UHGV virus genome: UHGV-1361177
DNA: 60,398 nucleotides
Origin: a virus
Direction: 5' to 3' (one strand)
A program made the position numbers and the translations under genes. A model generated the notes under the pieces. That model saw nothing but the letters and a program-made list of their open reading frames with translations, had not been told where the DNA came from and did not search any database. Shown here in pieces: positions 1 to 60,398 of this stretch; position 1 is the stretch's first letter, and every line of letters begins with the position of its first letter.

Positions 1-571
1 ACCACCAACCATTGCTATCATGGTTCCAGCCAACAGTGTATGAATTACTTTCTGCAAGGGTCCAATCTGGTCTTCCATATCCATCAATTCTGCTGTTGTT
101 AAGATTATACGATTTTTCGCATACGGCACCACCATTAGCGACAACTTCTGCACCGCTGCTGGTATTACCTTCAATCGTATAGACTTTTCCACCGGAAACT
201 TTTATTACAATTCCGGTGTGGCATATTCTTGACGAATTGCGGAAAAAAATCTGATCTCCTGGTTTGGGATCAGATTTGTGGTATTGGCCCTTATTCTTAA
301 AATATTGTGCAGACGTAGGAGTATAAGCGCTAAAGCCACCACACAACAATTGTTTAGCTTTTACTGAACCAAAGGCTTGTACAAAACACCAGTCTACGAA
401 CATATCACACCACGCTTGACCTTGAAGTGACGGATAAATATCCCTGGCATACTTTGTGTAATTATTGCTACCTGCATTGCCGGTTTTACTATCTAAAATA
501 TCATTTGACATTTTTTCAAGATATCCAAGTTCTGCTTTTGCAATTCCTATTAATCTGTCAACTACGCTCAT
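1..571 (-). CDS. N-terminal part of a CHAP-domain peptidoglycan hydrolase (endolysin-like). The ORF runs off the window start and continues in frame at 60190..60398.
   Basis: ATG at 569-571 preceded by AAAGGAGA. Translation MSVVDRLIGIAKAELGYLEK...GQAWCDMFVDWCF...CHTGIV shows the CHAP Cys/His motifs. The frame ends ...YTVGWNHDSNGWW with no stop before position 1. Confidence 0.6.
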   Translation of the reverse strand, partial: MSVVDRLIGIAKAELGYLEKMSNDILDSKTGNAGSNNYTKYARDIYPSLQGQAWCDMFVDWCFVQAFGSVKAKQLLCGGFSAYTPTSAQYFKNKGQYHKSDPKPGDQIFFRNSSRICHTGIVIKVSGGKVYTIEGNTSSGAEVVANGGAVCEKSYNLNNSRIDGYGRPDWTLAESNSYTVGWNHDSNGWW

Positions 572-43633: not shown

Positions 43634-43645
43634 ATTGTCTCCAAC

Positions 43646-43921
43646 TTAAATATGGCCTTTTATTTTGCCTTTGATGAAAGTATAAAGATATTCTAGGATA
43701 TCTTTTCTCTCAATTTTGTTTACCATTTCAATGATTTTCTTCCGATACTCTTCTTTTTCATCCACTAAAAGTCCCTCCAATTCATCCAAACCGCACGTTC
43801 TCTGTGTAGCGATAGGCATATTATAGAACGTATGTTCGATTATGTCAAGATAGCATCGGGGACACCGATACAAAATCAATGTCCCCAAACCAGAAGTTGA
43901 TTGCCCATTTTCATTGGACAT
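43646..43921 (-). CDS. hypothetical protein (CPRCY motif)
   Basis: 91 aa, no TM segment. Confidence 0.3.
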   Translation of the reverse strand: MSNENGQSTSGLGTLILYRCPRCYLDIIEHTFYNMPIATQRTCGLDELEGLLVDEKEEYRKKIIEMVNKIERKDILEYLYTFIKGKIKGHI

Positions 43922-43974
43922 TTCTAGTATATGCTTTTAGTGGGTAAAATATTCTTACGAGCAACGAAAAACTT

Positions 43975-44115
43975 TTATGATTCTTCTGTTTCTTCTGCAA
44001 GTTCTCCGCAATCCAGATCAATTAAAACCTGTTTTACCTGTGGCTTAATCTTTTCTGGTACCTGCGCGTAAGTCTTTCTACCTTTGATAATAAGAGTTGC
44101 ATAAATAATTGCCAT
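43975..44115 (-). CDS. XkdX-like small phage protein (copy 2)
   Basis: AAGGAGGTAAGCGAT then ATG. MAIIYATLIIKGRKTYAQVPEKIKPQVKQVLIDLDCGELAEETEES. Confidence 0.4.
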   Translation of the reverse strand: MAIIYATLIIKGRKTYAQVPEKIKPQVKQVLIDLDCGELAEETEES

Positions 44116-44155
44116 ATCGCTTACCTCCTTTCGTAATATTAAGAAAAGCAATAGT

Positions 44156-44269
44156 CTAAGCATCTAACAAAGCCTCGACCTCTGCTCTAATCTTCTCTGG
44201 AACATCATCAATTGTTTTTTTGCCCTTGCGAATTAAGTCCGCATAGACAGTTGCCATGTAGCTTGCCAT
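44156..44269 (-). CDS. XkdX-like small phage protein (copy 1, tandem paralog)
   Basis: AAAGGAGGCTTAATC then ATG. MASYMATVYADLIRKGKKTIDDVPEKIRAEVEALLDA. Confidence 0.35.
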   Translation of the reverse strand: MASYMATVYADLIRKGKKTIDDVPEKIRAEVEALLDA

Positions 44270-44271
44270 GA

Positions 44272-44637
44272 TTAAGCCTCCTTTGTGGTTGTAGTGGTTT
44301 GGGTTGCTTCATAAAGTTCAGTCAATGCTAACTGGGTGTTAGTGACTTCATCTTCCAGTGCCAGATTAGCTTCATACTGCTCGGTAAGAGCTAACTGGGC
44401 TTCGGTGAGCTGGTTTTCCAAATCTGTTACTCTAATCTGTAGTTTTCCAATATCTGATTCTGGCAGATACGAAAACACTGCTTTAGGCTCATCTGGATTA
44501 GTTACGTCAATTTTTTCAAGAGATGCTCCGTCTGGAATGTCCACGAACATTGACAACAGACCTTGTGGGGCTTGTTCTTCCCCATACACAATTGACCAGA
44601 TTCTACCTGTGGCATCGTAAATTACTAATGCTTTCAT
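44272..44637 (-). CDS. hypothetical coiled-coil protein downstream of the fiber genes
   Basis: C-terminal LENQLTEAQLALTEQYEANLALEDEVTNTQLALTELYE repeats. Confidence 0.4.
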   Translation of the reverse strand: MKALVIYDATGRIWSIVYGEEQAPQGLLSMFVDIPDGASLEKIDVTNPDEPKAVFSYLPESDIGKLQIRVTDLENQLTEAQLALTEQYEANLALEDEVTNTQLALTELYEATQTTTTTKEA

Positions 44638-44754
44638 TTGTTCTGTTCCTTTCTTGATTGTGATATACTGTTAATATCTTTTTACTTTTCTACAATTTTC
44701 TGCATCACCCCCATATGCCGGTAATCCACATTGGTATGTGATTGCAGGATATTA

Positions 44755-45411
44755 TTAATAGTATCCTGTAACGTAGTAATTGTACTTCTTATTTGGGGTT
44801 GTAACTTTTACTTTAAAAGTTGTTCCGCTTCGAATCGGAGAAGCCAATGTATAATTGGGCAATATTACACTTAGATTAGCCGGATCCCAAGGACAAGAAG
44901 TAGATAAGTCATGTGGGCCATTTTCCGCCATAAACATCCAACTTTTAATATAAAAACCAAGAGATAATGTTACATAATAGTCACTGCCAGAAGTTACTTG
45001 CCCATAACGAGATGCAAATTGTCTCACATTACCTGAAACACCGAATATCGACTTCCCATAAAGTATATTATTGCCAGTTAAATTCCCATCACCTTTGATA
45101 ACAATATCGCCGGTCATTTTCTTACCACTGCATGATACTGTCTGTTGAGCCGTATTAGGCGTATAAGTCCCACCACTCATCATACCCATGGTGCCGGTCT
45201 GCTTGCTTTTGGGATTGGTGGTATAGAAAGTTTTACCTGATAACACATCACCGGCTCCGGCATCACCACTAAGGGTTAGTGTACCAGTTAAAGGCTCTCC
45301 ATCTGCGCCAACAATTACCTTTCCAGACAAAACATCGTCCGCTGCGGCTGATACAACATCGAGGTCAATTCCACCACTGCCACCAATCATTAATACCTGT
45401 CCCATGGTCAT
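44755..45411 (-). CDS. tail fiber / receptor-binding protein (putative)
   Basis: Gly-rich with repeated DVLSGK motifs. Lies after the tail-associated protein. Confidence 0.5.
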   Translation of the reverse strand: MTMGQVLMIGGSGGIDLDVVSAAADDVLSGKVIVGADGEPLTGTLTLSGDAGAGDVLSGKTFYTTNPKSKQTGTMGMMSGGTYTPNTAQQTVSCSGKKMTGDIVIKGDGNLTGNNILYGKSIFGVSGNVRQFASRYGQVTSGSDYYVTLSLGFYIKSWMFMAENGPHDLSTSCPWDPANLSVILPNYTLASPIRSGTTFKVKVTTPNKKYNYYVTGYY

Positions 45412-45866
45412 ACCCCTTTCAAGCCAATAACAATATCAACAGTTGGCAGTTTGTAAACTTTAAATGTTACACTGCCATCTGCTGTAGTTCCAGTTCCAGA
45501 AGATATAATTCCAAATGCTTTACTATATGCCTTTTGTGCATCCACAGAAGCCCCATCAGCAAGCATACTTACAATTATTGGATTATCGTCTGCCCTAAGT
45601 CCCTCAACATCTACAGTTTGGCTATATGGGGCTGTATCGCCTACCCAACCAGTAGCAGTCAGTGTAACCGGTGTAGTATGATTTATCTGATTGACATTTT
45701 TATTAGTCTTGTTGATATCATTTGCCCCAAAGGTATCCCCAACCTGTGAATAACTTGTAGCATCTGTAAACGATACTGTGCCATCATCATTGCTTGTTTG
45801 CGTATATTTTCGACTGTTTCCAGATGCAATGATATCGTCCATATAATTCGTTTTTAAAGTTTCCAT
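45408..45866 (-). CDS. tail fiber or baseplate component (putative)
   Basis: Ser/Thr/Gly-rich 152 aa protein. Confidence 0.4.
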   Translation of the reverse strand: METLKTNYMDDIIASGNSRKYTQTSNDDGTVSFTDATSYSQVGDTFGANDINKTNKNVNQINHTTPVTLTATGWVGDTAPYSQTVDVEGLRADDNPIIVSMLADGASVDAQKAYSKAFGIISSGTGTTADGSVTFKVYKLPTVDIVIGLKGV

Positions 45867-46273
45867 CAGGTTCTCACTCCTTTCACATTCCCAAGTCTAA
45901 ATGCTAATACTGGCAACCCAGCTTCCAGCCTGTTCAACATTTCATAGATTCTTAATGTCGCAGACTCTATCCTGTTCAACTCATTCCATTGGATAAATGC
46001 TCCATTGCTGTAAAAGGTAGATGTCATGCCTATATTCTGGGTGTAAACGTTTTTGTTGATGGTTTCCAGATTCTTCTCAAAATTATTGATTTCTTTGGCA
46101 TACGGATAATCCGCATACCCTTTATCAGCTCCCATATCAATAATTCCAAAATTAGGGTAAAATTGTTCTGCTCTTTCATGCAGAAAATTCAAGTTCCCTT
46201 TTATCCGATTGTAATCACTGGCATTGAATCTGTCAGAAGATTCCCAATCAGTTTTAGGTTGTATCCATGGCAT
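45866..46273 (-). CDS. hypothetical tail-module protein
   Basis: 135 aa ORF coupled to neighbouring genes. Confidence 0.35.
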   Translation of the reverse strand: MPWIQPKTDWESSDRFNASDYNRIKGNLNFLHERAEQFYPNFGIIDMGADKGYADYPYAKEINNFEKNLETINKNVYTQNIGMTSTFYSNGAFIQWNELNRIESATLRIYEMLNRLEAGLPVLAFRLGNVKGVRT

Positions 46274-48576
46274 TACTCCACCACCTTTCTAGCCTTTAAT
46301 GTGCCGCTCCAAGCACCGCTATAATTTAGTTCGTTTTGATATGCACGTATCATTGTCTTATCCCTGTCTTTCAATTCCAGAAAGAATAAATCATTAGCAT
46401 CTGTACGCGGGTCTCCATTCCAGGGGATTTGATAATCAACATCTCCTAGATAATATTCCGCTAACCATTCTTCCTGGTCCTTCGCCAGCTTTTCTTCACT
46501 GATGAGCGGATTATTCCATGTCTTATTCACTCCTGTATCATTGTGCTTTTCAGTATAAGACTTTTCTGATACCACATATTCGTATCCGCTTACAGATATC
46601 TGAATAGCATCCCCGACTGTACCTGTAACTTTGATATTCGCATAATAATTGCTGCTCGATATTATTTCGACCATTGCCGTTCCTGAAGTAACAGATACTT
46701 CCAGTCCATATGCAGGATTTGTAAAATATATCGTCTTTGTCATTTCTTCACTATCAAGTGTCAATTCTTCTGATGTCAATTCAGTGATTTCCGCTTGCGA
46801 CATAGTATATATATTTCGTTTAACCGTAATGGACTGAATTTTTTCTTGCCTAGTGGCTACAGGAGATCCTTTTAAATTAAAATCTCGTGACAGCGTATAA
46901 TCTGTCGAGTCTCCAAATGATACTTTATCAACTGTTATCCTTGCATTAGGATATCCTTTCGAAAAAACGATTTCCATTTCATCGAATTTTTCAAGTTGTT
47001 CTTTATACTCACTATGCAGTTGTGGATTTACTATCTCAATATCTTGTACCTGTTCCTGCTGATAATAAGTGATAATATGGTATTTCTGAGGTGCTACATT
47101 ACGAAAATCAATGGAAAATCCAAAACATGTGTATCCTGTTTCTAAGTCAATATTAATTTTAGGAATATCTTCAAAATCACCATTTGAATCCGCTATACTA
47201 TCACTAACGTACCCTGTATCTTTTGAATACTCCGCTTCATCTTCCGGCAGAAACAAAACAGATCCGTCAACCAATGAAAAATCATTACTATATATGGCAT
47301 AGCCTATACGTTGATCTTGTTTCAAAACATTCTCAACATGGCTAAATTTTGTCTCGTTGTTAGCAGCTTTAATACCTGCCGGTAAAATATCCTCTCCTGG
47401 ATACAAAAATCTACTCGGATATACAAGATCAATACCGGCACTGGCATACATGTCTGGCAAAAATGATGATTTTATCCATACCCTTCCTTGCCGGTCAACG
47501 CTTAATACACATCTGCCTGCATTTGAGATTATCTGTAATGCCTCTGAATGTTTTACCACAGGAACAGGATTATATACCTTAACATTTTGCAAATATGGAT
47601 CAACCACATACTCATCTGTTTTCATACCGGCATCTTCCAGTACATCTAATGCCAAATCATAAAGAGATATTCCTTCTGGTCTATACAATCCCCTGTAATA
47701 TGTTCCATTCAATTTCCAGTCAAACATATCAACCATTGTGAACTTGGCTTCTGTATCAGTTGCGCTCCAAGATTTTAAAAATGCTGTAATTTCAGGAACC
47801 CATTCAATATTCCTAGTCCCGTCCAGATCATATCCAAATGACACTTTCATTTGCTGTCCTTGTTCCATATAAGCAACTGCTGATTCTGGATTATCTGGAT
47901 TGTAATATAGATTCTGATTATCTACAGTCAAAGTCATATCTTGGCTTGGAAGCGATTCACAAATCGTTGATACATAATCCTTATAAGTAAATGATTTCAC
48001 TTGCTTATTTGAGAAAGTATTTGAAATTCCACATGTAAATTCCAAAATCCTCATTCTTCCCTGCCCATTAACCATTGTCAGTGGGGTTATCCGCAAGAAA
48101 GAAATAGCATCGAATGTATCTTCTGTAACGAAATTCCGGGAAGAATTTTCATAGGTTTGTGTGCCATTATCAGATTGAACCGTAAATGAAGTTGGGTAAT
48201 ATTCGCCAAAATCAATTGTCAAGCCTTTTATGTCTGCCACATTGCCGTCAAAGTTAATATATACTGAGCCTTGGATTTTATCTGGAACCAAGCCATTATT
48301 GTAATAGGCATATCCGTCATCCTGCTCTGGAAGAAAATACATTGTGCCGTCAACCTTGGCAAAATCTTCTTCCAGTGTAGCGTATACCTGGCTAACTGTA
48401 TTGCCTTTAAATGCTGCTGTTGTATTTGCAAAATAAGCGAAATCATTGTCTGCTTCACTTGCCACTATATTATTTTGTGCTATGGAACTAATAATACCAA
48501 TCCTGGCAGTGATATAACCACGATTCCTATTAGGTTTTCGCATGGCTTTTTTATAAGCTGCACTTACAGTTTGCAT
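46273..48576 (-). CDS. tail-associated protein (Tal-like / minor structural protein)
   Basis: 767 aa; position and size only. Confidence 0.5.
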   Translation of the reverse strand: MQTVSAAYKKAMRKPNRNRGYITARIGIISSIAQNNIVASEADNDFAYFANTTAAFKGNTVSQVYATLEEDFAKVDGTMYFLPEQDDGYAYYNNGLVPDKIQGSVYINFDGNVADIKGLTIDFGEYYPTSFTVQSDNGTQTYENSSRNFVTEDTFDAISFLRITPLTMVNGQGRMRILEFTCGISNTFSNKQVKSFTYKDYVSTICESLPSQDMTLTVDNQNLYYNPDNPESAVAYMEQGQQMKVSFGYDLDGTRNIEWVPEITAFLKSWSATDTEAKFTMVDMFDWKLNGTYYRGLYRPEGISLYDLALDVLEDAGMKTDEYVVDPYLQNVKVYNPVPVVKHSEALQIISNAGRCVLSVDRQGRVWIKSSFLPDMYASAGIDLVYPSRFLYPGEDILPAGIKAANNETKFSHVENVLKQDQRIGYAIYSNDFSLVDGSVLFLPEDEAEYSKDTGYVSDSIADSNGDFEDIPKINIDLETGYTCFGFSIDFRNVAPQKYHIITYYQQEQVQDIEIVNPQLHSEYKEQLEKFDEMEIVFSKGYPNARITVDKVSFGDSTDYTLSRDFNLKGSPVATRQEKIQSITVKRNIYTMSQAEITELTSEELTLDSEEMTKTIYFTNPAYGLEVSVTSGTAMVEIISSSNYYANIKVTGTVGDAIQISVSGYEYVVSEKSYTEKHNDTGVNKTWNNPLISEEKLAKDQEEWLAEYYLGDVDYQIPWNGDPRTDANDLFFLELKDRDKTMIRAYQNELNYSGAWSGTLKARKVVE

Positions 48577-48582
48577 TTGCTA

Positions 48583-49011
48583 TCACTCCAGTCCTGCATC
48601 AATCAGATTAAACTTGCAGTTTTCATACTTGGTTACTATATGGCTCTCCGGATCTGCGTACAATGGTTTAGCTTCACGGTCTCCAGGATACATTGTTATG
48701 GTTATCGGCTTTCCGGTTCTATAATCTTCAAATGTTACCGGAATGTAAAAAGGTTCAACTGCTCTCAACATCATCTGCCAGACTTCCGGTTCAAGCATGG
48801 CCCATTCAAGGTTATTCAGCTTATACAGATCTCTACCCACTCGTTGACCTATGACGGCATTGTTAGCATTTCTTCCGGCATTGACAGTCGTTGTGATGAG
48901 ATAACTAAACCCAGCCTTAGGACAAGGAAAGTCATATCCATTCACGTTCAGGAAAGCTGTTAGACCTGATCCAGTAACCTTTGTTGTTTGCGCCATTAGG
49001 TACACCTCCAT
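48583..49011 (-). CDS. distal tail protein-like (putative, short)
   Basis: 142 aa ORF immediately upstream of the Tal-like gene. Confidence 0.3.
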   Translation of the reverse strand: MEVYLMAQTTKVTGSGLTAFLNVNGYDFPCPKAGFSYLITTTVNAGRNANNAVIGQRVGRDLYKLNNLEWAMLEPEVWQMMLRAVEPFYIPVTFEDYRTGKPITITMYPGDREAKPLYADPESHIVTKYENCKFNLIDAGLE

Positions 49012-49014
49012 TCA

Positions 49015-49430
49015 TTGGCAGTAATCTTTCTGACCCCAAAGGTAAAATCAGGGGACTTTTTCTTTTTAGATTATTACGTAAGTAATAATCTTTTTCTTTT
49101 TAATTTCTTACATTCTTATATTCTTACATTCTTTATATTCTTACATTCTTGTTTTGTGGTCCGTCTGGTAGTTCAAGTGGTGGTTCAACAGGTAGTCCGT
49201 TAGGTGGTTCAATAGGTAGTTCATCTGGTGGTTCGTTGGTTGGTTCAATATTTTTTCAAAAAGTTAGCAAACCGTTGATTTTACTAGCTTTTTCGGCTAT
49301 CAATATCAGTTCGCCAGTTGGTTCACATACCTAACACTACTTGAACACCAAAGTGAACACCAACCACACACCAAAATGATCACTCAGCGATCACGTTTTT
49401 GGGTACATTTTGTCGGTTAGAATGGGCTGA
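49015..49430. repeat. non-coding tandem-repeat array: three copies of ttcttacattctt(a/t)tat, ~3.5 copies of ggtggttcaa(c/t)aggtagt, and two copies of tgaacaccaa
   Basis: ttcttacattcttatattcttacattctttatattcttacattcttg; ggtggttcaacaggtagtccgttaggtggttcaataggtagttcatctggtggttcgttggttggttcaata. Confidence 0.5.
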
Positions 49431-49431
49431 T

Positions 49432-50030
49432 TTAAAGCTCATAATCTGGATAAACAGCTTCCCAAACATCTTTATGATAAGCATTTACTTCCCCATAATT
49501 TGCATCGAATATCTTTTTTACTTTATATCCCATACGTTCCCCAACTTCTTTCAGCCTTCTCCATTTGAATGTTTTCCAAGAAACATTATTCAGTGCTGCT
49601 ACTCGCTTGATAGAGTACCAATCTTTACTTGTATCAAGTTGTGCCTGTAGTTCTGCTTCCCGATCAAGGCTTTCCAGAAGCTGTGCAATTGCATCTCGAT
49701 ATGACATAGGCATATTTGTCTTATCATCTTTTTTCTGGAAATAGCTGTCTACCAATCGGTCATATACTTCCCACGCCTGATCCGTATTCAGTGACTTAGC
49801 GTGAAGAAATGCTCCTTTTTCTGTCCAAAGGTACAATTGATTTATTCTACTTGACGAAAAATCATTTTGATGCGTTGTCTTGAATGTTCTTAACTCATCA
49901 CCAGTCAGACACACAAAATGTTTCCCTTCCTGGTACCTATCCCTATTTCTGTTAAAATTATTGGTAATTATTTGTGTGTCCGTTCCATATGCTTCCGCAA
50001 TCTGCTGTGTGGTTAAAACTCTCTGGCATC
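49432..50030 (-). pseudogene. C-terminal fragment of an ORF6N-domain antirepressor-like gene disrupted by the IS66 insertion
   Basis: The frame is open from the IS boundary (CQRVLTTQQIAEAYGTDTQIITNNFNRNRDRYQEGKHFVCLTGDELRTFK) with no start codon. Confidence 0.6.
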
Positions 50031-50072
50031 GTAAAGGTCAAATCCTTCGCTCCACGCCAAATACAGCGCCGC

Positions 50073-51890
50073 TTATTTGCGGCGCTTGTAACACTCAGCC
50101 GGAAGGTCTTTCGACCATGGCATAAGTGGTTCTAACTCTTTTTCGTCTATACTTCCATCGGCACGAACAACCTGTGTCAGCTCTGTCAACAAATGTTTCA
50201 TGTAATAGTAGACATTCAGGCCATTCGCCCGGGCGGTCTCCGTAACACTGTAAATGATTGCACTGGCATCAGCTCCTCGTACCGTATTGATGGTCATCCA
50301 GTTTTTACGGCCAATCGTGAAAGTTCTCAGCGCACGTTCGCTGGCCAGGTTATCAATCGGTACTTCTCCATCTGACAGGAATACTTTCAGATATGCTTCC
50401 TGATTCAGGCAATAGTTGATGCCTTTGGCGGTTTCACTCTTTGGAAGCACCGACCGGTCCGCCTGTATCTTTCGGAGCCAGGCAAAGAATTCTTCAACCA
50501 GAGGCTTGATGGAAGCCTGCCGCTCATTTAAGCGTTCTTCTGGAGTCAGTTCCTTTAAAGCTCCTTCCAGGTCATAAATGGCACCAATTCGTACCAGTGC
50601 TTTATACGCAACAGACGCCTCGACCGCTTCTGGATTACTTTTTCCAATTGCCTTAATCGCATTTGCGAAGTGGCGCCTTGCGTGAGCCATGCAATTCGCA
50701 TTCTTCACACCAGCAAGATCCCGCTCCAGCTTATGATACTGTTCCAGGCCATCAGTCACAAGAACACCGTCAAAGTCCTTATAATACGCTTTCGGATGAT
50801 CGCTGTGTCGTGTCTTCTGGTATTCATACACAATGATTGGCGGCACAGGACTTAACTCTCCAGTGATGTGAACCCACATATAGCTTTTACTGCCTGCAGG
50901 TCTGCCGTCATGAATTACATCTACAGGTGTTTCATCACTCTGATTTACATGTGCTTCCAGCTGACGTTTCCTCATGAGATCACACACTGGCAATAAATAG
51001 CGTTCAGCTGTCCACACCGTCCAGTTCGACATCGTCTGTTTGGACAGATTCAGGCCGTTTGCCTGGAAGTCTCTGGAAATGCGGTCAAGCGGATTGCTGT
51101 TTACATACTTGGCATTGATGATTGCGGCTTCAAGAGAAGGAGTAGCAATGCTTCCCCTGAACATCGTTTCCGGGTGATCACCACGAAGAAATTCATCCTG
51201 ATGCGCACCATCTGTTCCAACATACACTTTTATGATGTGTTTTTCAGCAGTCCATTTGGCCGGTTCGAAACGAAGCTGCCAGAAAATCTCATCCGGCATA
51301 CTTTTCCAGTTTTCTTCACCGAAAGCCTCATTCAGTTCCTGTTCCGGTATATCATGAAGGATTACTTCCTGCGGAAAATCCTTCAGGTCTTCTTCACGCT
51401 GGCCTTTTTTCTTAGGCTTTCGCGGTACCTTTCTGGATGAATCAATGACCTCTTCCACAGTCGGTTCCTTGGCTGTTCCATCATAATTCGCTTCTGCCTC
51501 ATTAAAAAAAGAAAGCTGGCCTGCGATATCATCCAGTTTTTCCGTATGGCGGCCGAAGCGCTGCTGATTTGCCAGCCGGATCTGCTCTACGAGGTTTTCA
51601 TAGTTGTGTTCCAGTCGGTCAAGCCGGTCCTGCATCTGGTAGATGACATCGTCCTTAGTTTTATGATCCATCTTGTTCAGTTCATCTGGAGTGAATTTTT
51701 TGCACATGATATCCGCCTTTCTTACTAACGGTAGTATAGCAGAAATCTGTGACAAATGCGAATCAGCCTTCAGGCCGAGTTCGTCATTTTTTCCTGCCAC
51801 GAAAGTCATCAGAATTCGTATGTCAGCCTTTGGAAATATAGGGTTTTCAAGGTGCAATTGCATCGTTCCTGCCTGATAGCAGACGAACAA
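50073..51890 (-). CDS. tnpC: IS66-family transposase TnpC
   Basis: CMAHARRHF motif; ~600 aa. Confidence 0.85.
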   Translation of the reverse strand: MFVCYQAGTMQLHLENPIFPKADIRILMTFVAGKNDELGLKADSHLSQISAILPLVRKADIMCKKFTPDELNKMDHKTKDDVIYQMQDRLDRLEHNYENLVEQIRLANQQRFGRHTEKLDDIAGQLSFFNEAEANYDGTAKEPTVEEVIDSSRKVPRKPKKKGQREEDLKDFPQEVILHDIPEQELNEAFGEENWKSMPDEIFWQLRFEPAKWTAEKHIIKVYVGTDGAHQDEFLRGDHPETMFRGSIATPSLEAAIINAKYVNSNPLDRISRDFQANGLNLSKQTMSNWTVWTAERYLLPVCDLMRKRQLEAHVNQSDETPVDVIHDGRPAGSKSYMWVHITGELSPVPPIIVYEYQKTRHSDHPKAYYKDFDGVLVTDGLEQYHKLERDLAGVKNANCMAHARRHFANAIKAIGKSNPEAVEASVAYKALVRIGAIYDLEGALKELTPEERLNERQASIKPLVEEFFAWLRKIQADRSVLPKSETAKGINYCLNQEAYLKVFLSDGEVPIDNLASERALRTFTIGRKNWMTINTVRGADASAIIYSVTETARANGLNVYYYMKHLLTELTQVVRADGSIDEKELEPLMPWSKDLPAECYKRRK

Positions 51891-51981
51891 ATTGTTCTGA
51901 TCCGGTCATCCATTGTAAACGATAGCAGTTCTTTTCAGTACCAAAACAGAAAATATATTTTCTCTGTTTTGTACAAACGTT

Positions 51982-52338
51982 TCAATAGATATTTTTCGGA
52001 TCGACATCTTTGATTTTGGGATCCAGGGGATTTAAACCCATCATAAGATACTTGTACTGCTCTTCGGTAAGATCTGCGGCTTCCTGTATGTTTCTTGGCC
52101 AGGATAACCGTCCTGCTTCAAAGCGTTTATATAGAAGCAGGAATCCTGTTCCCATCCACAAGAGCCCTTTGCACCGATCGGAACGCTTTCCGCAAAACAA
52201 AAAGAGCGTTCCCTTCTCAAATGGATTTTGACCATACTTATCTCCTATAATCGTTGCCAGTCCATCAATGCCCTTTCTCAGATCAACCGTGCCGCAGGCA
52301 AGAACAACACGGCGAATACCAGCAGCATCTTCAAGCAT
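51982..52338 (-). CDS. tnpB: IS66 accessory protein TnpB (Orf2)
   Basis: VDLRKGIDGLATII...LFLFCGKRSDRCKGLLWMGTGFLLLYKRFEAGRLSWP. Confidence 0.85.
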   Translation of the reverse strand: MLEDAAGIRRVVLACGTVDLRKGIDGLATIIGDKYGQNPFEKGTLFLFCGKRSDRCKGLLWMGTGFLLLYKRFEAGRLSWPRNIQEAADLTEEQYKYLMMGLNPLDPKIKDVDPKNIY

Positions 52339-52756
52339 GGGACACCTCCTGAATAATCCGGCTCAGGAGCGCATCCGAGATTTCATTGGAAATATCAATC
52401 TGTAATGTTGCCGTCCGAATCGTTGCAACAGGTTTGTCGGAAACCATGTATGTATTTGTTTCCGCAGAAGTGTGGCATGGAATTTCAACAAAAGACAGTT
52501 CTGTTTTCTCGGTCACGGCAGGAACGGAAGAGTTTCCCTTCATTTCTTCATACGCCTGTTTCCGGAACCGTCGCTGCCAGTGATAATAGCTTTGTTCGCA
52601 GATGCCATTCTCATCCATCCAGCTTTTGGCTGACTGGCCTGCTGGTCTTTGCCCACAGGCCTGAATGATCTTCTTCCAGTACTCTGCACGGACTTCATGA
52701 GTACACTGATCCATAGTGTTTAGTCCTCCCTTGAAAAAATCTATTGTTTTTCTCAA
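52331..52756 (-). CDS. tnpA: IS66 accessory protein TnpA (Orf1)
   Basis: Position and size; SYYHWQRRFRK motif. Confidence 0.6.
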   Translation of the reverse strand: MRKTIDFFKGGLNTMDQCTHEVRAEYWKKIIQACGQRPAGQSAKSWMDENGICEQSYYHWQRRFRKQAYEEMKGNSSVPAVTEKTELSFVEIPCHTSAETNTYMVSDKPVATIRTATLQIDISNEISDALLSRIIQEVSHA

Positions 52757-52805
52757 GTATGCACTAAAAATGGATTTAGTGAAAGGCGCGTGGTTTGACC
52801 TTTAC

Positions 52806-52841
52806 CTGGCATCTGTACTCTGTTACTTTTAATCCTTCCAT
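52806..52841 (-). pseudogene. N-terminal fragment (start codon plus 11 codons) of the IS-disrupted ORF6N gene
   Basis: AAGGAGATAATTGG then ATG GAG GGA TTA AAA GTA ACA GAG TAC AGA TGC CAG reads in frame through the target duplication into 49432..50030. Confidence 0.5.
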
Positions 52842-53072
52842 CCAATTATCTCCTTCTGTATTTAAAGCAACAAAAAACGCCCACCAGACATAGATTTTCT
52901 ACATCTAGTGAGCGTGATTCTTAAACTGTTTTTGCCGTCCTTGCTCAGTTCGTCCTATCCTTTAAGCCTTGTTTTTCCCGCAACGGCTATTGGGCAAAGC
53001 TGATGGATTCGGCTAAATTTTACCCTTTTATTATACCTGTTTTGGGCTGGAATATCAAGGTTTCTTGCGCAT

Positions 53073-53765
53073 TTACCTCAATCTTCTACCAAAATAAAAT
53101 CTATCAAGCTCTTCCAAGCGATCAAGATAATCGTCTGCAGTTTTTCCAAGGTCTGTGAAGTGGTCAACAAGGTCAAGTCCTTTCTCTGGGGAATGACCAA
53201 CTTCCTTTTTGTAGATTTCATTTGCCTTCTCCAAGTCAAATTCCTCTCCAACTTTCAGCATAATGTGGTATTCCAACACAAACTGCGGCACATTGGCATT
53301 GTTGCAAATCCTATACATCCTCCGCTGATTTCTAGCATACCAACTAGGATTTTTGGGTATAGGTGTATTGCTTGGCTGGCAAACTGGAGGTTGCTCCAAT
53401 GTTGTTGATTTTGCTTTTACCCGAAAGTATGTGTTCACCAACTCTCTCTGGACTTTCCATGACAAATCATCTGTAAAGGTTTTAACTATCATCAGATAGC
53501 CGCTTTCTGTAAGCAAATAAGTTATAAGGTCGGGATTTCCCTTAATTATTTCATTAGGGGAATATCGTTCCCCTAATTCTTTTCTTGTCATTTCAAAGTA
53601 ATCCTCACCCAAAATAAAATGCTTTTTATGCTTTTGAAAAGATTTCTTTGCAGTATCTGTTTTCTTCTCATGTACTCTGTCAATGTCTTTTAGTGTCACA
53701 ACTCTCTGCCCGTTGTACTCTCTTATCTGCATTTCTGTATTTTCAATAGCAATGACTTCACTCAT
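53073..53765 (-). CDS. ORF6N-domain antirepressor-like protein (intact paralog)
   Basis: MQIREYNGQRVVTLKDIDRVHEKKTDTAKKSFQKHKKHFILGEDYFEM. Confidence 0.6.
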   Translation of the reverse strand: MSEVIAIENTEMQIREYNGQRVVTLKDIDRVHEKKTDTAKKSFQKHKKHFILGEDYFEMTRKELGERYSPNEIIKGNPDLITYLLTESGYLMIVKTFTDDLSWKVQRELVNTYFRVKAKSTTLEQPPVCQPSNTPIPKNPSWYARNQRRMYRICNNANVPQFVLEYHIMLKVGEEFDLEKANEIYKKEVGHSPEKGLDLVDHFTDLGKTADDYLDRLEELDRFYFGRRLR

Positions 53766-54021
53766 TTTTCATGCCTCCCCCAAATTCAATCTTGCCATTG
53801 GAAAGGCACTTGCAGGCATACGCAAAACCTGCAATAAATGACTTCTCTTGAACATCAAATACGCACCTGTTTATAGAACTTTCAATTTCATTGGCCAGCT
53901 TTGGATTTAAAATCTCATAAACTTTTTTCCACGCATCATCATATTCCCGTCCCCATGTATAATCTTGCGCTTCATCAGAATGAAACCACTGCTCATAAAT
54001 CATCTTTGCAAATTCATCCAT
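53758..54021 (-). CDS. hypothetical protein, coupled to a 40-aa ORF (54021..54142) with an AGGAGG RBS
   Basis: TAATG overlap. Confidence 0.3.
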   Translation of the reverse strand: MDEFAKMIYEQWFHSDEAQDYTWGREYDDAWKKVYEILNPKLANEIESSINRCVFDVQEKSFIAGFAYACKCLSNGKIEFGGGMKNE

Positions 54022-54263
54022 TACTGTTCACCGCCTTTCTGGCGGTCTGCCAGTCTATTAGTGTACGCAAGGATGCATTTCAAAAAATGCTCGTTGGTAT
54101 GTTCCAGATTGTTGATGATTGCTTCAATAAGTTTTTCTCTCATAAAAAACCTCCTGTAAAATATTGATTTTCCACAAGAGGTATGATATATTATTAGTAC
54201 ATATCCCCTTGTGGATGTGGCTTGATAAAAGTAATCGTCTCTCGCCAAAGTGACCGGTTACTT

Positions 54264-54449
54264 TTATTTTTTTGCTTTTTGGTATTCATCTTCAATACCT
54301 CTTCGGACAATTTCGGATCTGCTTACATTAAACTTTTCCGCTGAATAATCAAGTTTTTTTAATGTTTCATCGTCAAGTCTAGTTCTAAGCATAAAATCCT
54401 TTGTATTATCCTTAATTTTCTGCCCTGTTTTAGGCGACACTTTTTTCAT
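54264..54449 (-). CDS. ribbon-helix-helix protein (CopG/antitoxin-like)
   Basis: LRTRLDDETLKKLDYSAEKFNVSRSEIVRRGIEDEY. Confidence 0.5.
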   Translation of the reverse strand: MKKVSPKTGQKIKDNTKDFMLRTRLDDETLKKLDYSAEKFNVSRSEIVRRGIEDEYQKAKK

Positions 54450-54572
54450 CCTCCTTTCAGAACGTTGCTACATTTTGCATATCTTTATATTAACATTGTA
54501 GCAACAAACTGTCAACCCCCAAAATAAAAAAATCAGGGAAGTTTTTCGCTTCCCTGATAATTCATGCCAATA

Positions 54573-54881
54573 TTAAACTTTCCATGTGTGACCGCAGTTC
54601 TGACATGTGGCTCTGGTTTCAAGAATAGATGTTTCTTTTCCCTGTGTTTTTCCAATCCCTACTTTGTCACCTCTAAGAGTTCCAAAAAGCAGTTTCCACA
54701 ACCAGCCCATACATAAAAATTGCATTGCGTCAATAAACCAGCCAAAGCAAAGCCAATATAAACAGCCCCTTTTTCTAGGCTCTCTCATAACAATTTTTCC
54801 AGTAGATGTACTACCAGTCTGTACATTCTGAACAAAAACATCTTCGCTTCCACATTTAGGACACTTCATAATATCCACCAC
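54573..54881 (-). CDS. membrane protein with N- and C-terminal zinc-ribbon half-sites
   Basis: CPKCGSED ... TM segment CLYWLCFGWFIDAMQFLCMGWLWKLLF ... CQNCGH. Confidence 0.4.
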   Translation of the reverse strand: MVDIMKCPKCGSEDVFVQNVQTGSTSTGKIVMREPRKRGCLYWLCFGWFIDAMQFLCMGWLWKLLFGTLRGDKVGIGKTQGKETSILETRATCQNCGHTWKV

Positions 54882-54945
54882 TTGTATAATATTTGTGGAT
54901 ATTATATCACATAAAGGGGCAAAAGAAAAGAGGCTCGGTGGCCTC

Positions 54946-55542
54946 TTATGCTGTTCTCTTTTTCACTTCTTCAACTGCTTCTTCAAAAGAAATGTCAAAA
55001 AATTCCCCGTTTAATCTTGCGTCGCTAAAATGCCTATGCAATTCTGTTTCTAAATTTTGCACATTATCAATCTTCTCAGTAAAAAAACTTCTTACAATAT
55101 CCATCCCACTTGCAGATGAAATCGCCTTCATTCTTCTTCCTTTTTCTTTTGTAATTCCAATTTTCACAGTTCCGTTCGTAAATTCAAGTACATAAAGATA
55201 TTTGTTTTTCAATGATGGAGCGGATGCATTTTCATACATTTTATCTTTAAAAAGTTCCACTGCCCTTGCCATATGCGCACAATGATTTTGCTCATGCATA
55301 ACGTTTGTTTCTAACAAAATCTCCATTTCTGCTATATCCATGCATTTTTGTGCCAGTTTACAGTTCCCAAGTCCAGCAATTGTGATAAATGCCTCATTAA
55401 AATTTATATAATTTTTTGAATGTTCATTGTCCATTATTTCCATAAGGCATCCGGCTAGCTTTTGATTATATTCATTTTGTGTATCAATTAAAAAGTCTGC
55501 TATTTCTTTTACTGACATAAGTATTTCGTTTGAATTTAACAT
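54946..55542 (-). CDS. T5orf172 (GIY-YIG-related) nuclease-domain protein
   Basis: YLYVLEFTNGTVKIGITKEKGRRMKAI...ELHRHFSDARLNGEFFDIS. Confidence 0.55.
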   Translation of the reverse strand: MLNSNEILMSVKEIADFLIDTQNEYNQKLAGCLMEIMDNEHSKNYINFNEAFITIAGLGNCKLAQKCMDIAEMEILLETNVMHEQNHCAHMARAVELFKDKMYENASAPSLKNKYLYVLEFTNGTVKIGITKEKGRRMKAISSASGMDIVRSFFTEKIDNVQNLETELHRHFSDARLNGEFFDISFEEAVEEVKKRTA

Positions 55543-55658
55543 CTCAATCCTCCTAATTCATACATACTGATACCGCCTTTCTTTGACTACTGCTTGTGCA
55601 GGTAGGTTATTTTATATCAGTATTATGGACATGTACTTCATCAATGGAACGGACATAG

Positions 55659-58600
55659 TTAAGTGAAGCTAAATCCATTTCTGCTGATTCGGCTGTTAAT
55701 AGCACTGACAAGCTCACGCCCGTCAAGACTAATTGACGTATCCTTGTCAGCAGTTTCCCTGGTATTTTCTGCAATCTGGGACAGATATGGAGCTAAGACA
55801 TCTGCAACAGCTTCTCTTACTCCGGCAGTAATGCCAGCTACAATCTGCTCATTATTTGCTACTGCGGTTTTGCCATTGGAGAACTGACCAACCATCTCAT
55901 TATGGTTTGCAAAGAACAGACCATCTTCTGGGAACCCACCTACAGAGTATTTAGGAATGTCAACATGAGCTATTGCTCTGAAAGATACATGTGAAATGGT
56001 ATCTTCTTGCATTTCCTTTGCTGCCTCATTGTAATCGCTGATCAGGTCATTCATAGACTCTGCAATTCTGGACAATCCAGTATTGAACAGGTCAATCATG
56101 CCATTGACTAAATCTCCAACTTCTTTCACAATGCCTTTAAATCCAGAATAGATACCGTCCTTCATATTGGTTCCAAATGGTTCCCATTTTTCCTTTGTGA
56201 ACCAGGTAGACACATTGTTGGTAAACCAATTGTTGATATTAGTGTTCCACTGGGTTTCAAATTCAGCCCATTTATCCAGAAGTGCAGTTTTGAAGTGATC
56301 GCCCTGTTCCTTCCACTTTTCAACGGTAAACCATGTTTTTACGTTAGTATTCCACCACGTATTAGTCTTTGTTTTCCACTGAGATACAAATTCATCCCAC
56401 TTGGCAATAAGACCTGTTTTCATTCCGTCCGTTGTAGTTTTCCATTTTTCGGTGGTAAACCACGGAGAAACATTTGCACTAAAAAATGTTGGCATTGCTG
56501 TTCCAGACCACCATACAGCAGCTTGGTTCCATGCATTCATTAACGATGTCTCAAGATTGCCAAAAATAGGATCCAGTGCCGTAGTAGTAAAACTTGACGC
56601 AAGACCAGATACAGCAGTAGTACCAATCGTGCTAAACTGCGACTCACTAAGGGTATCAGAAATAGTATTGTATACGTCAGTAGCAAACATGCTAATTGTA
56701 TCAATACCGTTACTGCTCTCAAATGGCTTAATTAAACCATCCAGCATACCTTGCCCAATCTCTTTCCATTTGGATTCAGAGAATATGTCATAAACATCAT
56801 TTATAGTACCGGAAATACCATTTTGCAGTCCTTCAATGAGATAAACACCATTCTCATCCATGACAGTAGACGGGGAATGGATACCAAGGATGTCCTTAAA
56901 TTTATCAATGACACTTTGAGCTACCGTACCAACACTCTCTTTGATATTATTCCAACCGTCTTTGATACCATTAATCAAGCCTTCCATGAGGTACCCACCC
57001 ATTTCTGCCATGACCAATGATGGGGAATGAATTTTAAATGCTGACATAAATCCATTCATAACAGGTGTATAAATATTATCAATGATCCACTGCCCTACAG
57101 ATTTTAAAGCATCTACAATACCAGCAAATAAGCCCGCAACAATGTCACCGCCAGCCGCCTGAATATAAGTGGTGAAATAAGCTTTTGTTGCATTAAATCC
57201 ATTCACAAGCACATTCCATACTTGTTGTGCAAGTGCTACTCCAAGTGATGTAAGCGCGCCTACAGCTGTCCCTAAGTATGTGAAGTATGTTGTAATCAAT
57301 CCTGAATAATTAAACGTTGTAACAATGTTATATAATGCGTTCCAGAGGTTTGTTCCGACTTGTGCCCAGTCAACAGAAGCAAGACCGGATATTACAAAAT
57401 CAAATATACCTGTGACAATTGTATATCCAGCGTCTACCAGTCTCTGCGCAAGACCGCCCCAATCTATATTAACAAGAAAATCCATGACTCCTTCGCCAAA
57501 TGCTCCCCAATCTGTATCACTGACAAAAGCGATAAGTGTATCAAGCAATCCATTGACAAGAGAACTGAGGCTTGTAGCTGCACCTGACCAGCTAAAAGCT
57601 GATGCAAATGTATTTAAACTAAGCGCAAGACTACTTCCGAAATTAGTCCAATCAAATGTTGTCGCAGCATTTTCTAATACCGTAAATGCAGCATTTAATC
57701 CATTTGCAAGCATTTGTCCAATTTCATTCCATTGAATAGAATTAACAATTCCATTGAGACCGTCACCAATGAATTTTCCAATAGAGTCCCAATGCGTAAC
57801 ATCCAAAAGAGTATTTGCGAAGTCTACAGCTGTATTAATTCCCTGACCAATGGTTGTACCGATTGAAGTTGCCAGTCCTTCAGTTTCAACAAAGCCATTA
57901 ATAAAGGTTCCAATACTGGATGCAATCTTTCTGGCAGACTCCTGGATTCCATCCCAAGGGATAGAGTCCAGGCCATTCTTAAGCCAAGTGCCAACAGCAG
58001 AACCAAGTTCTGTAAAGTCGGCCGCTTCCCACATGGACTTGATTTTATCAGACCATTCCTTGTATTTGCTGTCAATCTCATCTGTCTCAAACATATCAGC
58101 GGCACTTGCACCACCACCGCTGCCACCAGATCCGCCACTCTTGCTTTGGTCAACAATGTTCAGCTCATCAATTCCAAGCGTATGCGTTTTAAGGTCATCA
58201 GCAGCCTTACTAGCCCCGCCAAGGCTCTTAGCATAGTCTTGTGTCTGCTTCTTGGCTTTAATCCATGTACCATGTCCTGTAAGCGCAGAAAACAGCTGAT
58301 TAACAGCATTTGCCGCATTAATACACATCTGAATGATAGTATTTAACGCCGGAGCCAGTGCGTTAAGGATTGGCGCTCCTGCCGCCGCTACAGAGTTTTT
58401 CAGCTGATTTGTGGAATTCATCAGCAATGACATACTGGCATTGGTTTCGCTGCTGTACTTGACCAAATTTTGCATACCGTCAACAAAAGCTTTTTGCAAC
58501 TTATTGATTAATGCAAATAAGGTCCTCACTCCTACTGCATATCTAAGCATGGTTCCTAGATTTTTTAGCAATGAATTATGAGAGCCTTTACTTGCCCCTG

Positions 58601-60189: not shown

Positions 60190-60398
60190 TTAAAAATTTC
60201 CCACATCCTGTTTGCCATCTGAATTTGTCAAGTACAATGCACACTCATATGGATGTCCTGATCTAGGCTCAAAGTAATACCAACTATCGCCAATCTCTTG
60301 CCAGCCAGTTACTGCATATCCATCTTTGTTGAAATAATACTTATGATGGTTGATAACTTTCCAACAATTTTTGCAATATGTTGATTTCGTATCTGCAT
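60190..60398 (-). CDS. C-terminal cell-wall-binding (choline-binding-type YG) repeat region of the lysin begun at 571..1
   Basis: The frame is open from the window end: ADTKSTYCKNCWKVINHHKYYFNKDGYAVTGWQEIGDSWYYFEPRSGHPYECALY...VGNF*. The junction codon t+at gives Tyr, yielding GWNHDSNGWWY, a canonical repeat. Confidence 0.55.
   Translation of the reverse strand, partial: ADTKSTYCKNCWKVINHHKYYFNKDGYAVTGWQEIGDSWYYFEPRSGHPYECALYLTNSDGKQDVGNF

What the first reader, a model, noticed from the sequence alone, without database searches (positions are those of the whole stretch)
50023..52841. Intact IS66-family insertion with an 8-bp target-site duplication splitting an ORF6N antirepressor-like gene
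A 2775-bp element encodes the three IS66 ORFs (TnpC with CMAHARRHF, TnpB, TnpA). It has imperfect inverted ends starting GTAAAGGTCAAA and is bracketed by the direct repeat CTGGCATC (50023-50030 and 52806-52813). Removing the IS and one repeat copy restores a continuous ORF: MEGLKVTEYRCQ|RVLTTQQIAEAYGTD...HFVCLTGDELRTFK, whose own RBS and ATG lie at 52841. The IS is visibly more GC-rich than the phage. This looks like a recent transposition into a phage genome and inactivates one of two ORF6N paralogs.
Basis: seen in the sequence. Interest (0 to 1): 0.6.

Follow-up and report, generated by a model that had tools for sequence, protein, structure and literature searches.

The report
IS66 insertion in gut phage gene
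A common gut-bacterial jumping gene (an IS66-family insertion sequence) has recently hopped into a dispensable regulator-like gene of a temperate phage; this is a clean textbook event, notable mainly because reads probably from the same sample also show the phage without the insertion.

Summary
Window 50031-52805 is a 2775-bp IS66-family insertion sequence on the minus strand, carrying tnpA, tnpB and tnpC. It has 12-bp perfect terminal inverted repeats (GTAAAGGTCAAA) and a perfect 8-bp duplication, CTGGCATC.

Removing the IS and one octamer restores a 208-aa ORF6N / anti-repressor-like gene. The restored 72-nt site is identical to an uninterrupted site in a related phage.

Independent copies of the same IS end at exactly the same bases, and 18 distinct sites carry their own 8-bp duplications. 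At least 100 different flanks occur in human-gut metagenomes. Identical TnpC occurs in Enterocloster clostridioformis CM201.

The window is a complete, circularly assembled 60,398-bp temperate tailed phage. The IS sits in a hypervariable accessory island between the tape-measure and distal tail genes.

New here: another assembly of a 100%-identical phage (run SRR5091472) breaks exactly at the junction and reads through the empty site. IS-free genomes therefore exist, and the insertion is very recent and probably polymorphic.

The kind is known: ISEc8 in Stx phages is a precedent. The verdict is real and ordinary, with low-to-moderate interest.

The parts
50023..50030 (.). Target-site duplication, left copy (CTGGCATC)
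   Evidence: Related phages L002, L003, L086 and L087 have a single copy.
50031..52805 (-). IS66-family insertion sequence, 2775 bp (order tnpA-tnpB-tnpC on the minus strand)
   Evidence: BLAST alignments to independent copies start and end exactly at these bases. There are 56 distinct full-length copies with median 99% identity.
50031..50042 (.). Terminal inverted repeat at the tnpC-side end (GTAAAGGTCAAA)
   Evidence: The GTAARSGTCAAA end is conserved in relatives down to 72% identity.
52794..52805 (.). Terminal inverted repeat at the tnpA-side end (TTTGACCTTTAC)
50073..51710 (-). tnpC, DDE transposase, 545 aa. Gene callers extend it to 596 aa from 51863, but that extension lies in the non-conserved spacer.
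   Evidence: Pfam LZ_Tnp_IS66, DDE_Tnp_IS66 (4.4e-77) and DDE_Tnp_IS66_C. NF033517 at 323 bits. CMAHARRHF at residue 340, with invariant D259/D268, D320 and E458 among 51 homologues.
51711..51981 (-). 271-bp tnpB-tnpC spacer with an AT-rich hairpin at 51942-51971. It is the least conserved part of the IS.
   Evidence: Split HSPs in 70-77% identical relatives. Hairpin -14.4 kcal/mol, z -3.0.
51982..52338 (-). tnpB (IS66 Orf2), 118 aa
   Evidence: PF05717 at 8.7e-30. NF033819 at 88.5 bits.
52331..52714 (-). tnpA-like accessory ORF, 127 aa. It overlaps the tnpB start by 8 nt (ATGCTTGA).
   Evidence: Only a sub-threshold match to NF047593 IS66_ISAeme5_TnpA (25.7 bits, cutoff 28). A weak HTH hit. 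Position and overlap read from the sequence.
52806..52813 (.). Target-site duplication, right copy (CTGGCATC)
52806..52841 (-). 5' fragment of the target gene: codons 1-12 (MEGLKVTEYRCQ). The RBS is at 52850-52855.
49432..50030 (-). 3' fragment of the target gene: codons 10-208 plus the stop codon; codons 10-12 are the left copy of the 8-bp duplication (50023-50030).
   Evidence: On its own it gives no Pfam hit. Once restored, ORF6N covers profile positions 2-86 of 86 at E 3.1e-21, and it matches PHROG anti-repressor families down to 7e-34.
52877..52915 (-). Strong terminator-like hairpin (18 pairs plus a T-run), 36 nt upstream of the target gene's ATG
   Evidence: -28.7 kcal/mol, z -5.8.
53073..53765 (-). 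Neighbouring intact ORF6N-domain gene, 230 aa (the 'second paralog')
   Evidence: PF10543 at 6e-16. PHROG anti-repressor at 2e-42. 25% identical to the target over the N-terminal domain. Absent from related phage L002.

Best explanation
A canonical, intact IS66-family insertion sequence has transposed by ordinary DDE-transposase cut-and-integrate chemistry into a temperate tailed phage. The element carries tnpA, tnpB and tnpC, and TnpC is the DDE transposase. It is widespread and multi-copy in human-gut Clostridia such as Enterocloster and Blautia.

The transposition most plausibly happened while the phage resided in a lysogen. Staggered cleavage of the target and gap repair produced the 8-bp duplication CTGGCATC.

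The insertion lies after codon 12 of a 208-aa ORF6N-domain (anti-repressor-like) accessory gene. It splits the DNA-binding domain, so the gene is inactivated. The gene lies in a hypervariable, dispensable island between the tape-measure gene and the distal tail genes, which is why the insertion is tolerated.

The event is very recent. IS-free genomes of the same phage strain exist, probably in the same sample.

Shown here: the element's identity and boundaries, the duplication, the empty site, intactness, the phage context, and the existence of the IS-free allele.

Inferred: the host chromosome as donor, the timing during lysogeny, the loss of function, and the co-occurrence of both alleles in one sample.
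For: - Family assignment: (TnpC 323 bits against a cutoff of 180; TnpB 88.5 against 50).
- Boundaries, inverted repeats and duplication.
- Same boundaries elsewhere: independent genomic copies in L009, L011, L020, L034 and L035 end at the same bases and have their own 8-bp duplications. There are 56 distinct full-length copies, with 18 distinct perfect 8-bp duplications and a best identity of 99.93%.
- Abundance: at least 100 distinct flanks in human-gut metagenomes. The exact TnpC is listed in 2543 blocks of the collection and in 3 or more copies in GCA_000371405.1. That protein is named from [Clostridium] clostridioforme CM201.
- Empty site: alignments to related phages stop at 50030 and resume at 52806, with one octamer in the relative. 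The restored 72-mer is 72/72 identical to L002. Intact 205-208-aa orthologues reach 94% identity.
- Restored gene: a full ORF6N domain.
- Phage identity. Circular assembly with a 77-nt terminal overlap.
- IS-free allele: Logan contigs L211 and L215 are 100% identical to the window. They overlap by exactly 30 nt (k-1) at the junction, and L215 reads through the empty site.
- Dispensability: L002 lacks the neighbouring ORF6N gene, and L086 carries a pRha gene where the window has a T5orf172 gene.
- Base composition: 46.1% against 39.0% G+C.
Against: - No read data were available, so allele frequencies and the physical linkage of the two junctions on one molecule are inferred from assemblies.
- tnpA is only a sub-threshold profile match.
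- Many metagenomic copies (35 of 47) lack matching duplications. This shows that assemblers often join wrong flanks across this repeat. Here, however, both flanks belong to the same codon-continuous gene.
- The phage's host is not established. The closest isolate carrying a related capsid gene is an unclassified Oscillospiraceae bacterium, not Enterocloster or Blautia.
- Loss of function of the target gene, and its anti-repressor role, are untested.
Confidence: 0.93

Rival explanations
1. Assembly artefact. The IS is a multi-copy repeat in the metagenome, and the assembler threaded it into the phage contig wrongly (a chimeric join).
For: This IS does cause chimeric joins in metagenome assemblies. 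35 of 47 full-length metagenomic copies have non-matching flanks, and the same left flank is paired with different right flanks. Two other assemblies of the same phage break at the junction instead of traversing the IS.
Against: Both junctions abut the two halves of one codon-continuous gene, with a perfect 8-bp duplication at the exact IS termini. A chimeric path would not re-enter the same gene 8 bp upstream of where it left. Each k-mer of a de Bruijn contig comes from reads, so both junction sequences exist in the reads. The Logan contig ending exactly at the junction, with zero bases into the IS or the empty site, is what a real two-way branch produces.
Confidence: 0.02
2. The IS-bearing allele exists only as an integrated, possibly defective prophage in a lysogen. 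The circular closure of the contig comes from the co-occurring IS-free phage genomes, so no IS-carrying virion or circular genome need exist.
For: The IS-free and IS-bearing versions are 100% identical over about 26 kb of compared flank, so an assembler cannot phase the circularising reads. The IS adds 2783 bp (+4.8%) to a 57,615-bp genome. That is close to the roughly 105-106% packaging limit quoted in PMC3429520. It also makes the genome larger than most contigs of relatives, which are 55-59 kb. The insertion lies inside the late tail-gene region and brings hairpins that might be polar.
Against: Nothing direct. The island already contains several strong terminators between tail genes in IS-free relatives, so late transcription evidently copes with them. 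The disrupted gene and its neighbours are dispensable in relatives. This rival concerns the state of the molecule, not the identity of the feature, so it is compatible with the best explanation.
Confidence: 0.4
3. The IS is an old, fixed or domesticated component of this phage lineage rather than a recent arrival.
For: IS66-family elements are stably present in some temperate phages, for example ISEc8 in Stx2-converting phages.
Against: All related phages examined (L002, L003, L086, L087) have the empty site. So do the more than 50 intact orthologues of 205-208 aa. A 100%-identical phage lacks the IS. The duplication is perfect, the IS is 99-99.9% identical to chromosomal copies, and its G+C content is unameliorated.
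Confidence: 0.02

Closest known systems
The IS66-family element of Enterocloster ([Clostridium]) clostridioformis, e.g. strain CM201 proteins ENY86275.1 and ENY86276.1. Compare also the 27-29 identical IS66 copies reported in C. clostridioforme LM41 (bioRxiv 10.1101/2024.01.22.576618).
   Same: The TnpC sequence (596-aa call) and the TnpB sequence are exactly identical. Three copies in GCA_000371405.1 are 99.2% identical in DNA over all 2775 bp, each with its own 8-bp duplication. The LM41 paper notes IS66 transposases inside predicted prophage regions and the classic tnpB/tnpC organisation.
   Different: Here the copy sits in a circularly assembled phage genome, and an IS-free allele of the same phage was recovered. 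Whether the LM41 element is the same IS is not tested: its tnpC is given as 1623 bp, whereas this one is 1638 bp. No ISfinder name could be checked.
ISEc8 (IS66 family) in Stx2-converting phages of E. coli O157:H7, e.g. phage 1717 (NC_011357)
   Same: It is an IS66-family, three-ORF insertion sequence carried inside a temperate tailed phage genome of about 60 kb.
   Different: TnpC is only about 25% identical. The host phylum differs. ISEc8 is shared by several related Stx phages, whereas this insertion is unique to one strain and probably still polymorphic.
Prototype IS66 / IS679 / ISRm14 (Proteobacteria), as defined by ISfinder. Basis: my own knowledge, not verified with the tools here.
   Same: tnpA-tnpB-tnpC order, tnpA/tnpB overlap, a DDE TnpC with the CwAH-RR motif, an 8-bp duplication, and inverted repeats starting GTAA.
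   Different: There is a 271-bp non-conserved spacer between tnpB and tnpC instead of a short gap. TnpA is too diverged to pass the curated models. The perfect part of the inverted repeat is only 12 bp.

Membership tests
IS66 family of insertion sequences | TnpC transposase with the IS66-type DDE domain and the CwAH-RR motif | tested here: met
   PF03050 at 4.4e-77, with profile positions 2-283 of 284 covered, plus PF13007 and PF13817. NF033517 at 323 bits against a cutoff of 180. CMAHARRHF at residue 340, with invariant acidic residues D259/D268, D320 and E458 in 51 homologues. Assigning these residues to the catalytic triad is an inference.
IS66 family of insertion sequences | TnpB (IS66 Orf2) accessory gene upstream of tnpC | tested here: met
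   PF05717 at 8.7e-30. NF033819 at 88.5 bits against a cutoff of 50.
IS66 family of insertion sequences | TnpA accessory gene first in the operon, overlapping tnpB | tested here: inconclusive
   The 127-aa ORF is in the right place and overlaps tnpB by 8 nt. However, the best curated match, NF047593, scores 25.7 bits, below its cutoff of 28. Pfam HTH_Tnp_1 reaches only E 0.1.
IS66 family of insertion sequences | 8-bp target-site duplication | tested here: met
   CTGGCATC on both sides. 18 other distinct sites of the same IS, and 5 genomic relatives, also show perfect 8-bp duplications.
IS66 family of insertion sequences | Imperfect terminal inverted repeats beginning 5'-GTAA | tested here: met
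   GTAAAGGTCAAA matches 12/12, then degenerates. The ends are conserved as GTAA(A/G)(G/C)GTCAAA in relatives of 72-99% identity.
IS66 family of insertion sequences | Demonstrated transposition activity, and an ISfinder name or the 95% aa / 90% nt naming rule | not testable with these tools
   Evidence is indirect only: many near-identical copies at different sites, each with its own duplication, and an occupied and an empty allele in one phage strain. ISfinder is not available here.
ORF6N-domain (KilA-N-like) phage 'anti-repressor' proteins | Complete ORF6N domain (PF10543) | tested here: met
   This holds only after in-silico excision: profile positions 2-86 of 86, E 3.1e-21. The 3' fragment alone gives no hit.
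ORF6N-domain (KilA-N-like) phage 'anti-repressor' proteins | Anti-repressor activity (binds or inactivates the phage repressor) | not tested
   Only PHROG family labels support this. The gene lies between tail genes, behind a strong terminator, and not in the lysis-lysogeny switch.
Temperate tailed phage (Caudoviricetes) | Hallmark genes and a closed genome | tested here: met
   Terminase large subunit, portal, major head, tape measure and serine integrase are present. The last 77 nt of the contig equal its first 77 nt. Synteny with IMG/VR phages holds.

The most novel reading that the evidence does not exclude
The IS-bearing genome may be a viable, packageable phage. At +4.8%, it is just inside the usual headful tolerance. 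If so, this is a natural snapshot of a phage acting as an inter-genus shuttle for a highly successful IS66 element. That would help explain why identical TnpC sequences occur in Enterocloster, Blautia and thousands of gut contigs. It would also run against the general conclusion that phages are poor vectors of insertion sequences (PMC3429520).
Probability: 0.15. Interest if true: 0.5.

Novelty: new member of a known kind. Interest (0 to 1): 0.27.

Why it matters
As biology it is ordinary. A known IS family behaves exactly as the textbook says, and the same element, with identical proteins, is already in GenBank genomes.

Its value lies in three smaller points.

1. It is a clean, fully verifiable example of an IS caught shortly after entering a phage genome. 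The literature finds this uncommon: 92% of phages carry no IS (PMC3429520), and only 33 of 50,697 phage records here hold an IS66-type transposase.
2. The occupied and empty alleles of one phage strain give a ready-made natural experiment. It could show whether IS-loaded phages are packaged and transmitted, and so whether phages shuttle insertion sequences among gut Clostridia.
3. It marks the region between the tape-measure gene and the distal tail genes of this very common gut phage lineage as a dispensable cargo island.

Tried and rejected
- Megablast of the IS against the INPHARED phage and PLSDB plasmid collections found no match. Megablast of the left phage flank against phages also found none. 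The phage lineage and this IS are absent from cultured-phage and plasmid collections at 85% identity or above.
- An Rfam scan of 49000-54000 gave only a sub-threshold, meaningless snoRNA hit. No known RNA lies in the tnpB-tnpC spacer or the target-gene leader.
- The two IMG/VR contigs carrying close relatives of TnpC (L084, L085) were checked for phage context. Their flanks encode a group II intron-type reverse transcriptase, a Mu/rve transposase, Uma2 and an M78 peptidase, with no structural genes in the stretch held. They are not convincing further phage-borne copies.
- Host assignment through the major capsid protein gave thousands of gut-virome relatives. Only one was a named isolate, an unclassified Oscillospiraceae bacterium, so the host stays unresolved.
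- A literature look-up of GCA_000371405 found nothing. The organism was instead inferred from the protein names.
- The 605-aa TTG-start ORF and the 596-aa gene-caller version of tnpC were considered. I rejected them as the true start because the extension lies in the spacer that is not conserved among relatives. The ATG at 51710 has a good RBS, and homologues align from residue 1-2.
- I could not confirm that the run SRR5091472 also holds the occupied junction. The look-ups by exact protein cannot be restricted to one sample.
Full report
**1. Observation**

- CTGGCATC occurs at 50023-50030 and at 52806-52813.
- The 2775 bp between them (50031-52805) begin with GTAAAGGTCAAA and end with its reverse complement. 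The match is 12/12, then only scattered matches.
- Three co-oriented ORFs lie on the minus strand:
  - tnpA-like, 52331-52714, 127 aa.
  - tnpB, 51982-52338, 118 aa, whose ATG overlaps the end of tnpA by 8 nt.
  - tnpC, 50073-51710, 545 aa, after a 271-bp spacer.
- The IS is 46.1% G+C against 39.0% for the rest of the window. No other IS-sized stretch exceeds 43.6%.

**2. What the element is**

- TnpC matches Pfam LZ_Tnp_IS66, DDE_Tnp_IS66 (4.4e-77, full profile) and DDE_Tnp_IS66_C. It also matches NCBIfam NF033517 'IS66 family transposase' at 323 bits against a cutoff of 180.
- TnpB matches PF05717 and NF033819 at 88.5 bits against a cutoff of 50.
- The first ORF only approaches the curated TnpA models: NF047593 at 25.7 bits, with a cutoff of 28.
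- The CMAHARRHF motif is at residue 340. Acidic residues D259/D268, D320 and E458 are invariant among 51 homologues of 54-100% identity.

The boundaries are confirmed independently.
- In 75 genomic loci, mostly Lachnospiraceae and other gut Clostridia, BLAST alignments to the IS start and stop at precisely the same terminal bases.
- Five of those genomic copies carry their own 8-bp duplications.
These had at least 100 different flanking sequences, nearly all from the human gut.
- Pooling all loci gives 56 distinct full-length copies with median identity 99% and best identity 99.93% (2 mismatches). Eighteen different perfect 8-bp duplications occur, with no evident consensus.
- The exact TnpC protein is indexed in 2543 blocks of the collection. 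It occurs at least three times in assembly GCA_000371405.1.
- The source name attached to that protein is [Clostridium] clostridioforme CM201. The exact TnpB is named from Enterocloster clostridioformis.
- A 99%-identical copy lies in an uncultured Blautia MAG.

The element is therefore a known, highly active IS66-family IS of gut Clostridia, and the window copy is intact.

**3. The target and the empty site**

- Removing the IS and one octamer gives a 208-aa ORF whose ORF6N domain (PF10543) is complete: profile positions 2-86 of 86, E 3.1e-21. The 3' fragment alone gives no hit.
- The restored protein matches PHROG 'anti-repressor' families down to 7e-34.
- It has more than 50 intact orthologues of 205-208 aa, at up to 94% identity.
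- In four related phage contigs (L002, L003, L086, L087), DNA alignments stop at window 50030 and resume at 52806, with a single GATGCCAG in the relative.
- The restored 72-nt site is 72/72 identical to L002. An exact 25-mer spanning the empty site occurs in IMG/VR.
- The insertion follows codon 12. The upstream stump would encode a 21-aa peptide, and the downstream part has no in-frame start before the middle of the domain (read from the sequence). Loss of function is inferred, not tested.
- The neighbouring ORF6N gene (53073-53765) is only 25% identical, over the N-terminal domain alone. 'Paralog' should be read loosely.

**4. Context**

- The window encodes a terminase large subunit, portal, major head protein, a 1488-aa tape-measure protein and a serine integrase. 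It also carries three tRNAs.
- Nearly all genes are on one strand.
- The window is contig ERZ773411 NODE_43_length_60475_cov_14.39, also held as JGI 3300045988 Ga0495776_007395. The last 77 nt of that contig repeat its first 77 nt.
- It is therefore a circularly assembled genome of 60,398 bp. Without the IS and one copy of the duplication it would be 57,615 bp, so the IS adds 4.8%.
- The IS lies between the tape-measure gene (55659-60125) and the distal tail genes (48583-49011, 46273-48576). This island holds small accessory genes separated by terminator-like hairpins.
- The island differs among relatives. L002 lacks the second ORF6N gene, and L086 has a pRha-family gene where the window has a T5orf172 gene.
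- This variability explains why an insertion here can be tolerated.

**5. New evidence: the insertion is probably polymorphic**

Two Logan contigs of run SRR5091472 are 100% identical to the window.
- L211 covers window 52806-60398 and continues into 1-9727. It ends exactly at base 52806, the last base before the IS.
- L215 covers 41328-50030. It begins with the 30 nt that lie upstream of the junction and reads straight through the uninterrupted gene...CAGATGCCAG|AGAGTTTT....
- The two contigs overlap by exactly 30 nt, which is k-1 for a k=31 graph. That is the signature of a branch at this node.
- K-mers spanning the empty site must come from reads, so IS-free genomes of this very strain exist.
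- The break itself is best explained by a second continuation into the IS. This is an inference.
- By coordinate arithmetic, a third assembly (ERZ28666125) ends a scaffold at window 52806 as well.
- I could not establish that these assemblies derive from the same reads as NODE_43. The 100% identity over about 26 kb makes the same sample or the same individual likely.

**6. Artefact?**

- Metagenome assemblers do mis-join flanks across this IS: 35 of 47 full copies have discordant flanks.
- Here, however, the contig leaves and re-enters the same gene with a perfect 8-bp duplication at the exact IS termini. A chimeric path would not produce that.
- I rate the artefact hypothesis at about 2%.
- What cannot be decided is whether the IS-bearing molecule is itself circular or packaged. 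The circularising reads could equally come from the co-occurring IS-free genomes.

**7. Comparison with what is known**

- IS66-family elements in temperate phages have precedents. tblastn finds an IS66-type transposase in 33 of 50,697 phage records. These are mostly ISEc8 in Stx-converting phages, plus Pseudomonas phage Marin and Leptospira phage LE1, all below 60% identity to this TnpC.
- Leclercq and Cordaux reported that 92% of phages carry no IS. They argued that capsids tolerate only about 105-106% of genome size (PMC3429520).
- A preprint on C. clostridioforme LM41 describes 27-29 identical IS66 copies, some inside predicted prophages.
- The mechanism, the family and the phenomenon are thus all known. 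This is a new, unusually well-documented instance.

**8. Verdict**

The confidence is 0.93 that this is a genuine, recent IS66-family transposition into a phage accessory gene. Interest is low to moderate (0.27). The only non-trivial prospect is using the occupied/empty pair to test whether phages ferry this IS between gut Clostridia.

Noticed in passing
window 52806 / 50030; loci L211 (end) and L215 (start): Logan contigs of run SRR5091472 are 100% identical to the window. They break exactly at the IS junction, overlap by 30 nt (k-1), and read through the empty site. An IS-free allele of the same phage strain therefore exists in the reads.
   Followed up: partly
window 1-77 versus the contig end (L212): The source contig (60,475 bp) ends with a 77-nt copy of its start, so the window is a complete circular assembly. 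A 259-aa CHAP plus choline-binding gene spans the artificial break (window 571..1 joined to 60398..60190, minus strand), just upstream of the tape-measure gene.
   Followed up: partly
window 53030-53058 and 52877-52915 (minus strand): The signals ahead of the target gene come in an odd order. A near-consensus promoter (TTGATA-17-TATAAT, 11/12) is followed about 115 nt later by a very strong terminator hairpin (18 pairs, z -5.8), and only then by the RBS and ATG. This could be a small RNA, an attenuator-type leader, or a chance promoter match. The region is 98% conserved in L002.
   Followed up: no
window 52842-55658; L002, L003, L086: The island between the tape-measure gene and the distal tail genes is hypervariable. 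Window 53168-53741 (most of the second ORF6N gene) is replaced by about 41 bp in L002. A pRha-family gene in L086 occupies the place of the window's T5orf172/MUG113 gene (54946-55542). Several terminator-like hairpins separate these small genes.
   Followed up: partly
L009 173-1968 (uncultured Blautia UMGS335): The 99%-identical genomic copy of the IS carries a nested 1.8-kb insertion near its tnpA-side end. The insertion encodes a 495-aa DDE_Tnp_1_6 transposase, so it is an IS within the IS.
   Followed up: partly
window 51711-51981: The 271-bp tnpB-tnpC spacer is the least conserved part of the IS among relatives of 70-77% identity. It starts with an AT-rich 15+15 hairpin (51942-51971). Gene callers extend tnpC into it (596-605 aa), probably wrongly.
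   Followed up: partly
window 50057-50079 (minus strand): A perfect 7-bp GC stem (GCGCCGC-AAATAA-GCGGCGC) overlaps the tnpC stop codon, 30 nt inside the IS end (fold -26.6 kcal/mol, z -3.0). It may be a weak terminator or insulator, or a protein-binding site.
   Followed up: no
window 12551-13361: The phage carries three tRNA genes (Ile-TAT, Tyr-GTA, Gln-TTG). The tRNA-Tyr call is 92 nt long.
   Followed up: no
loci L089-L208 (metagenome copies of the IS): 35 of 47 full-length metagenomic copies have non-matching flanks, and the same left flank recurs with different right flanks. Short-read assemblies therefore routinely create chimeric joins across this IS. This is a caution for binning and prophage calls in gut Clostridia.
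   Followed up: partly
proteins P0241, P0271 (public annotations): Public annotation of this IS is inconsistent. The exact TnpC is deposited as 'hypothetical protein' in C. clostridioforme CM201. The 127-aa first ORF (TnpA position) is named 'accessory protein TnpB' in a Waltera sp. record.
   Followed up: no
proteins P0084, P0098: The C-terminal half of the target protein (about residues 110-208) recurs at 91-95% identity fused to a Bro-N domain instead of ORF6N in other gut phage proteins. This indicates domain shuffling among these DNA-binding accessory proteins.
   Followed up: no
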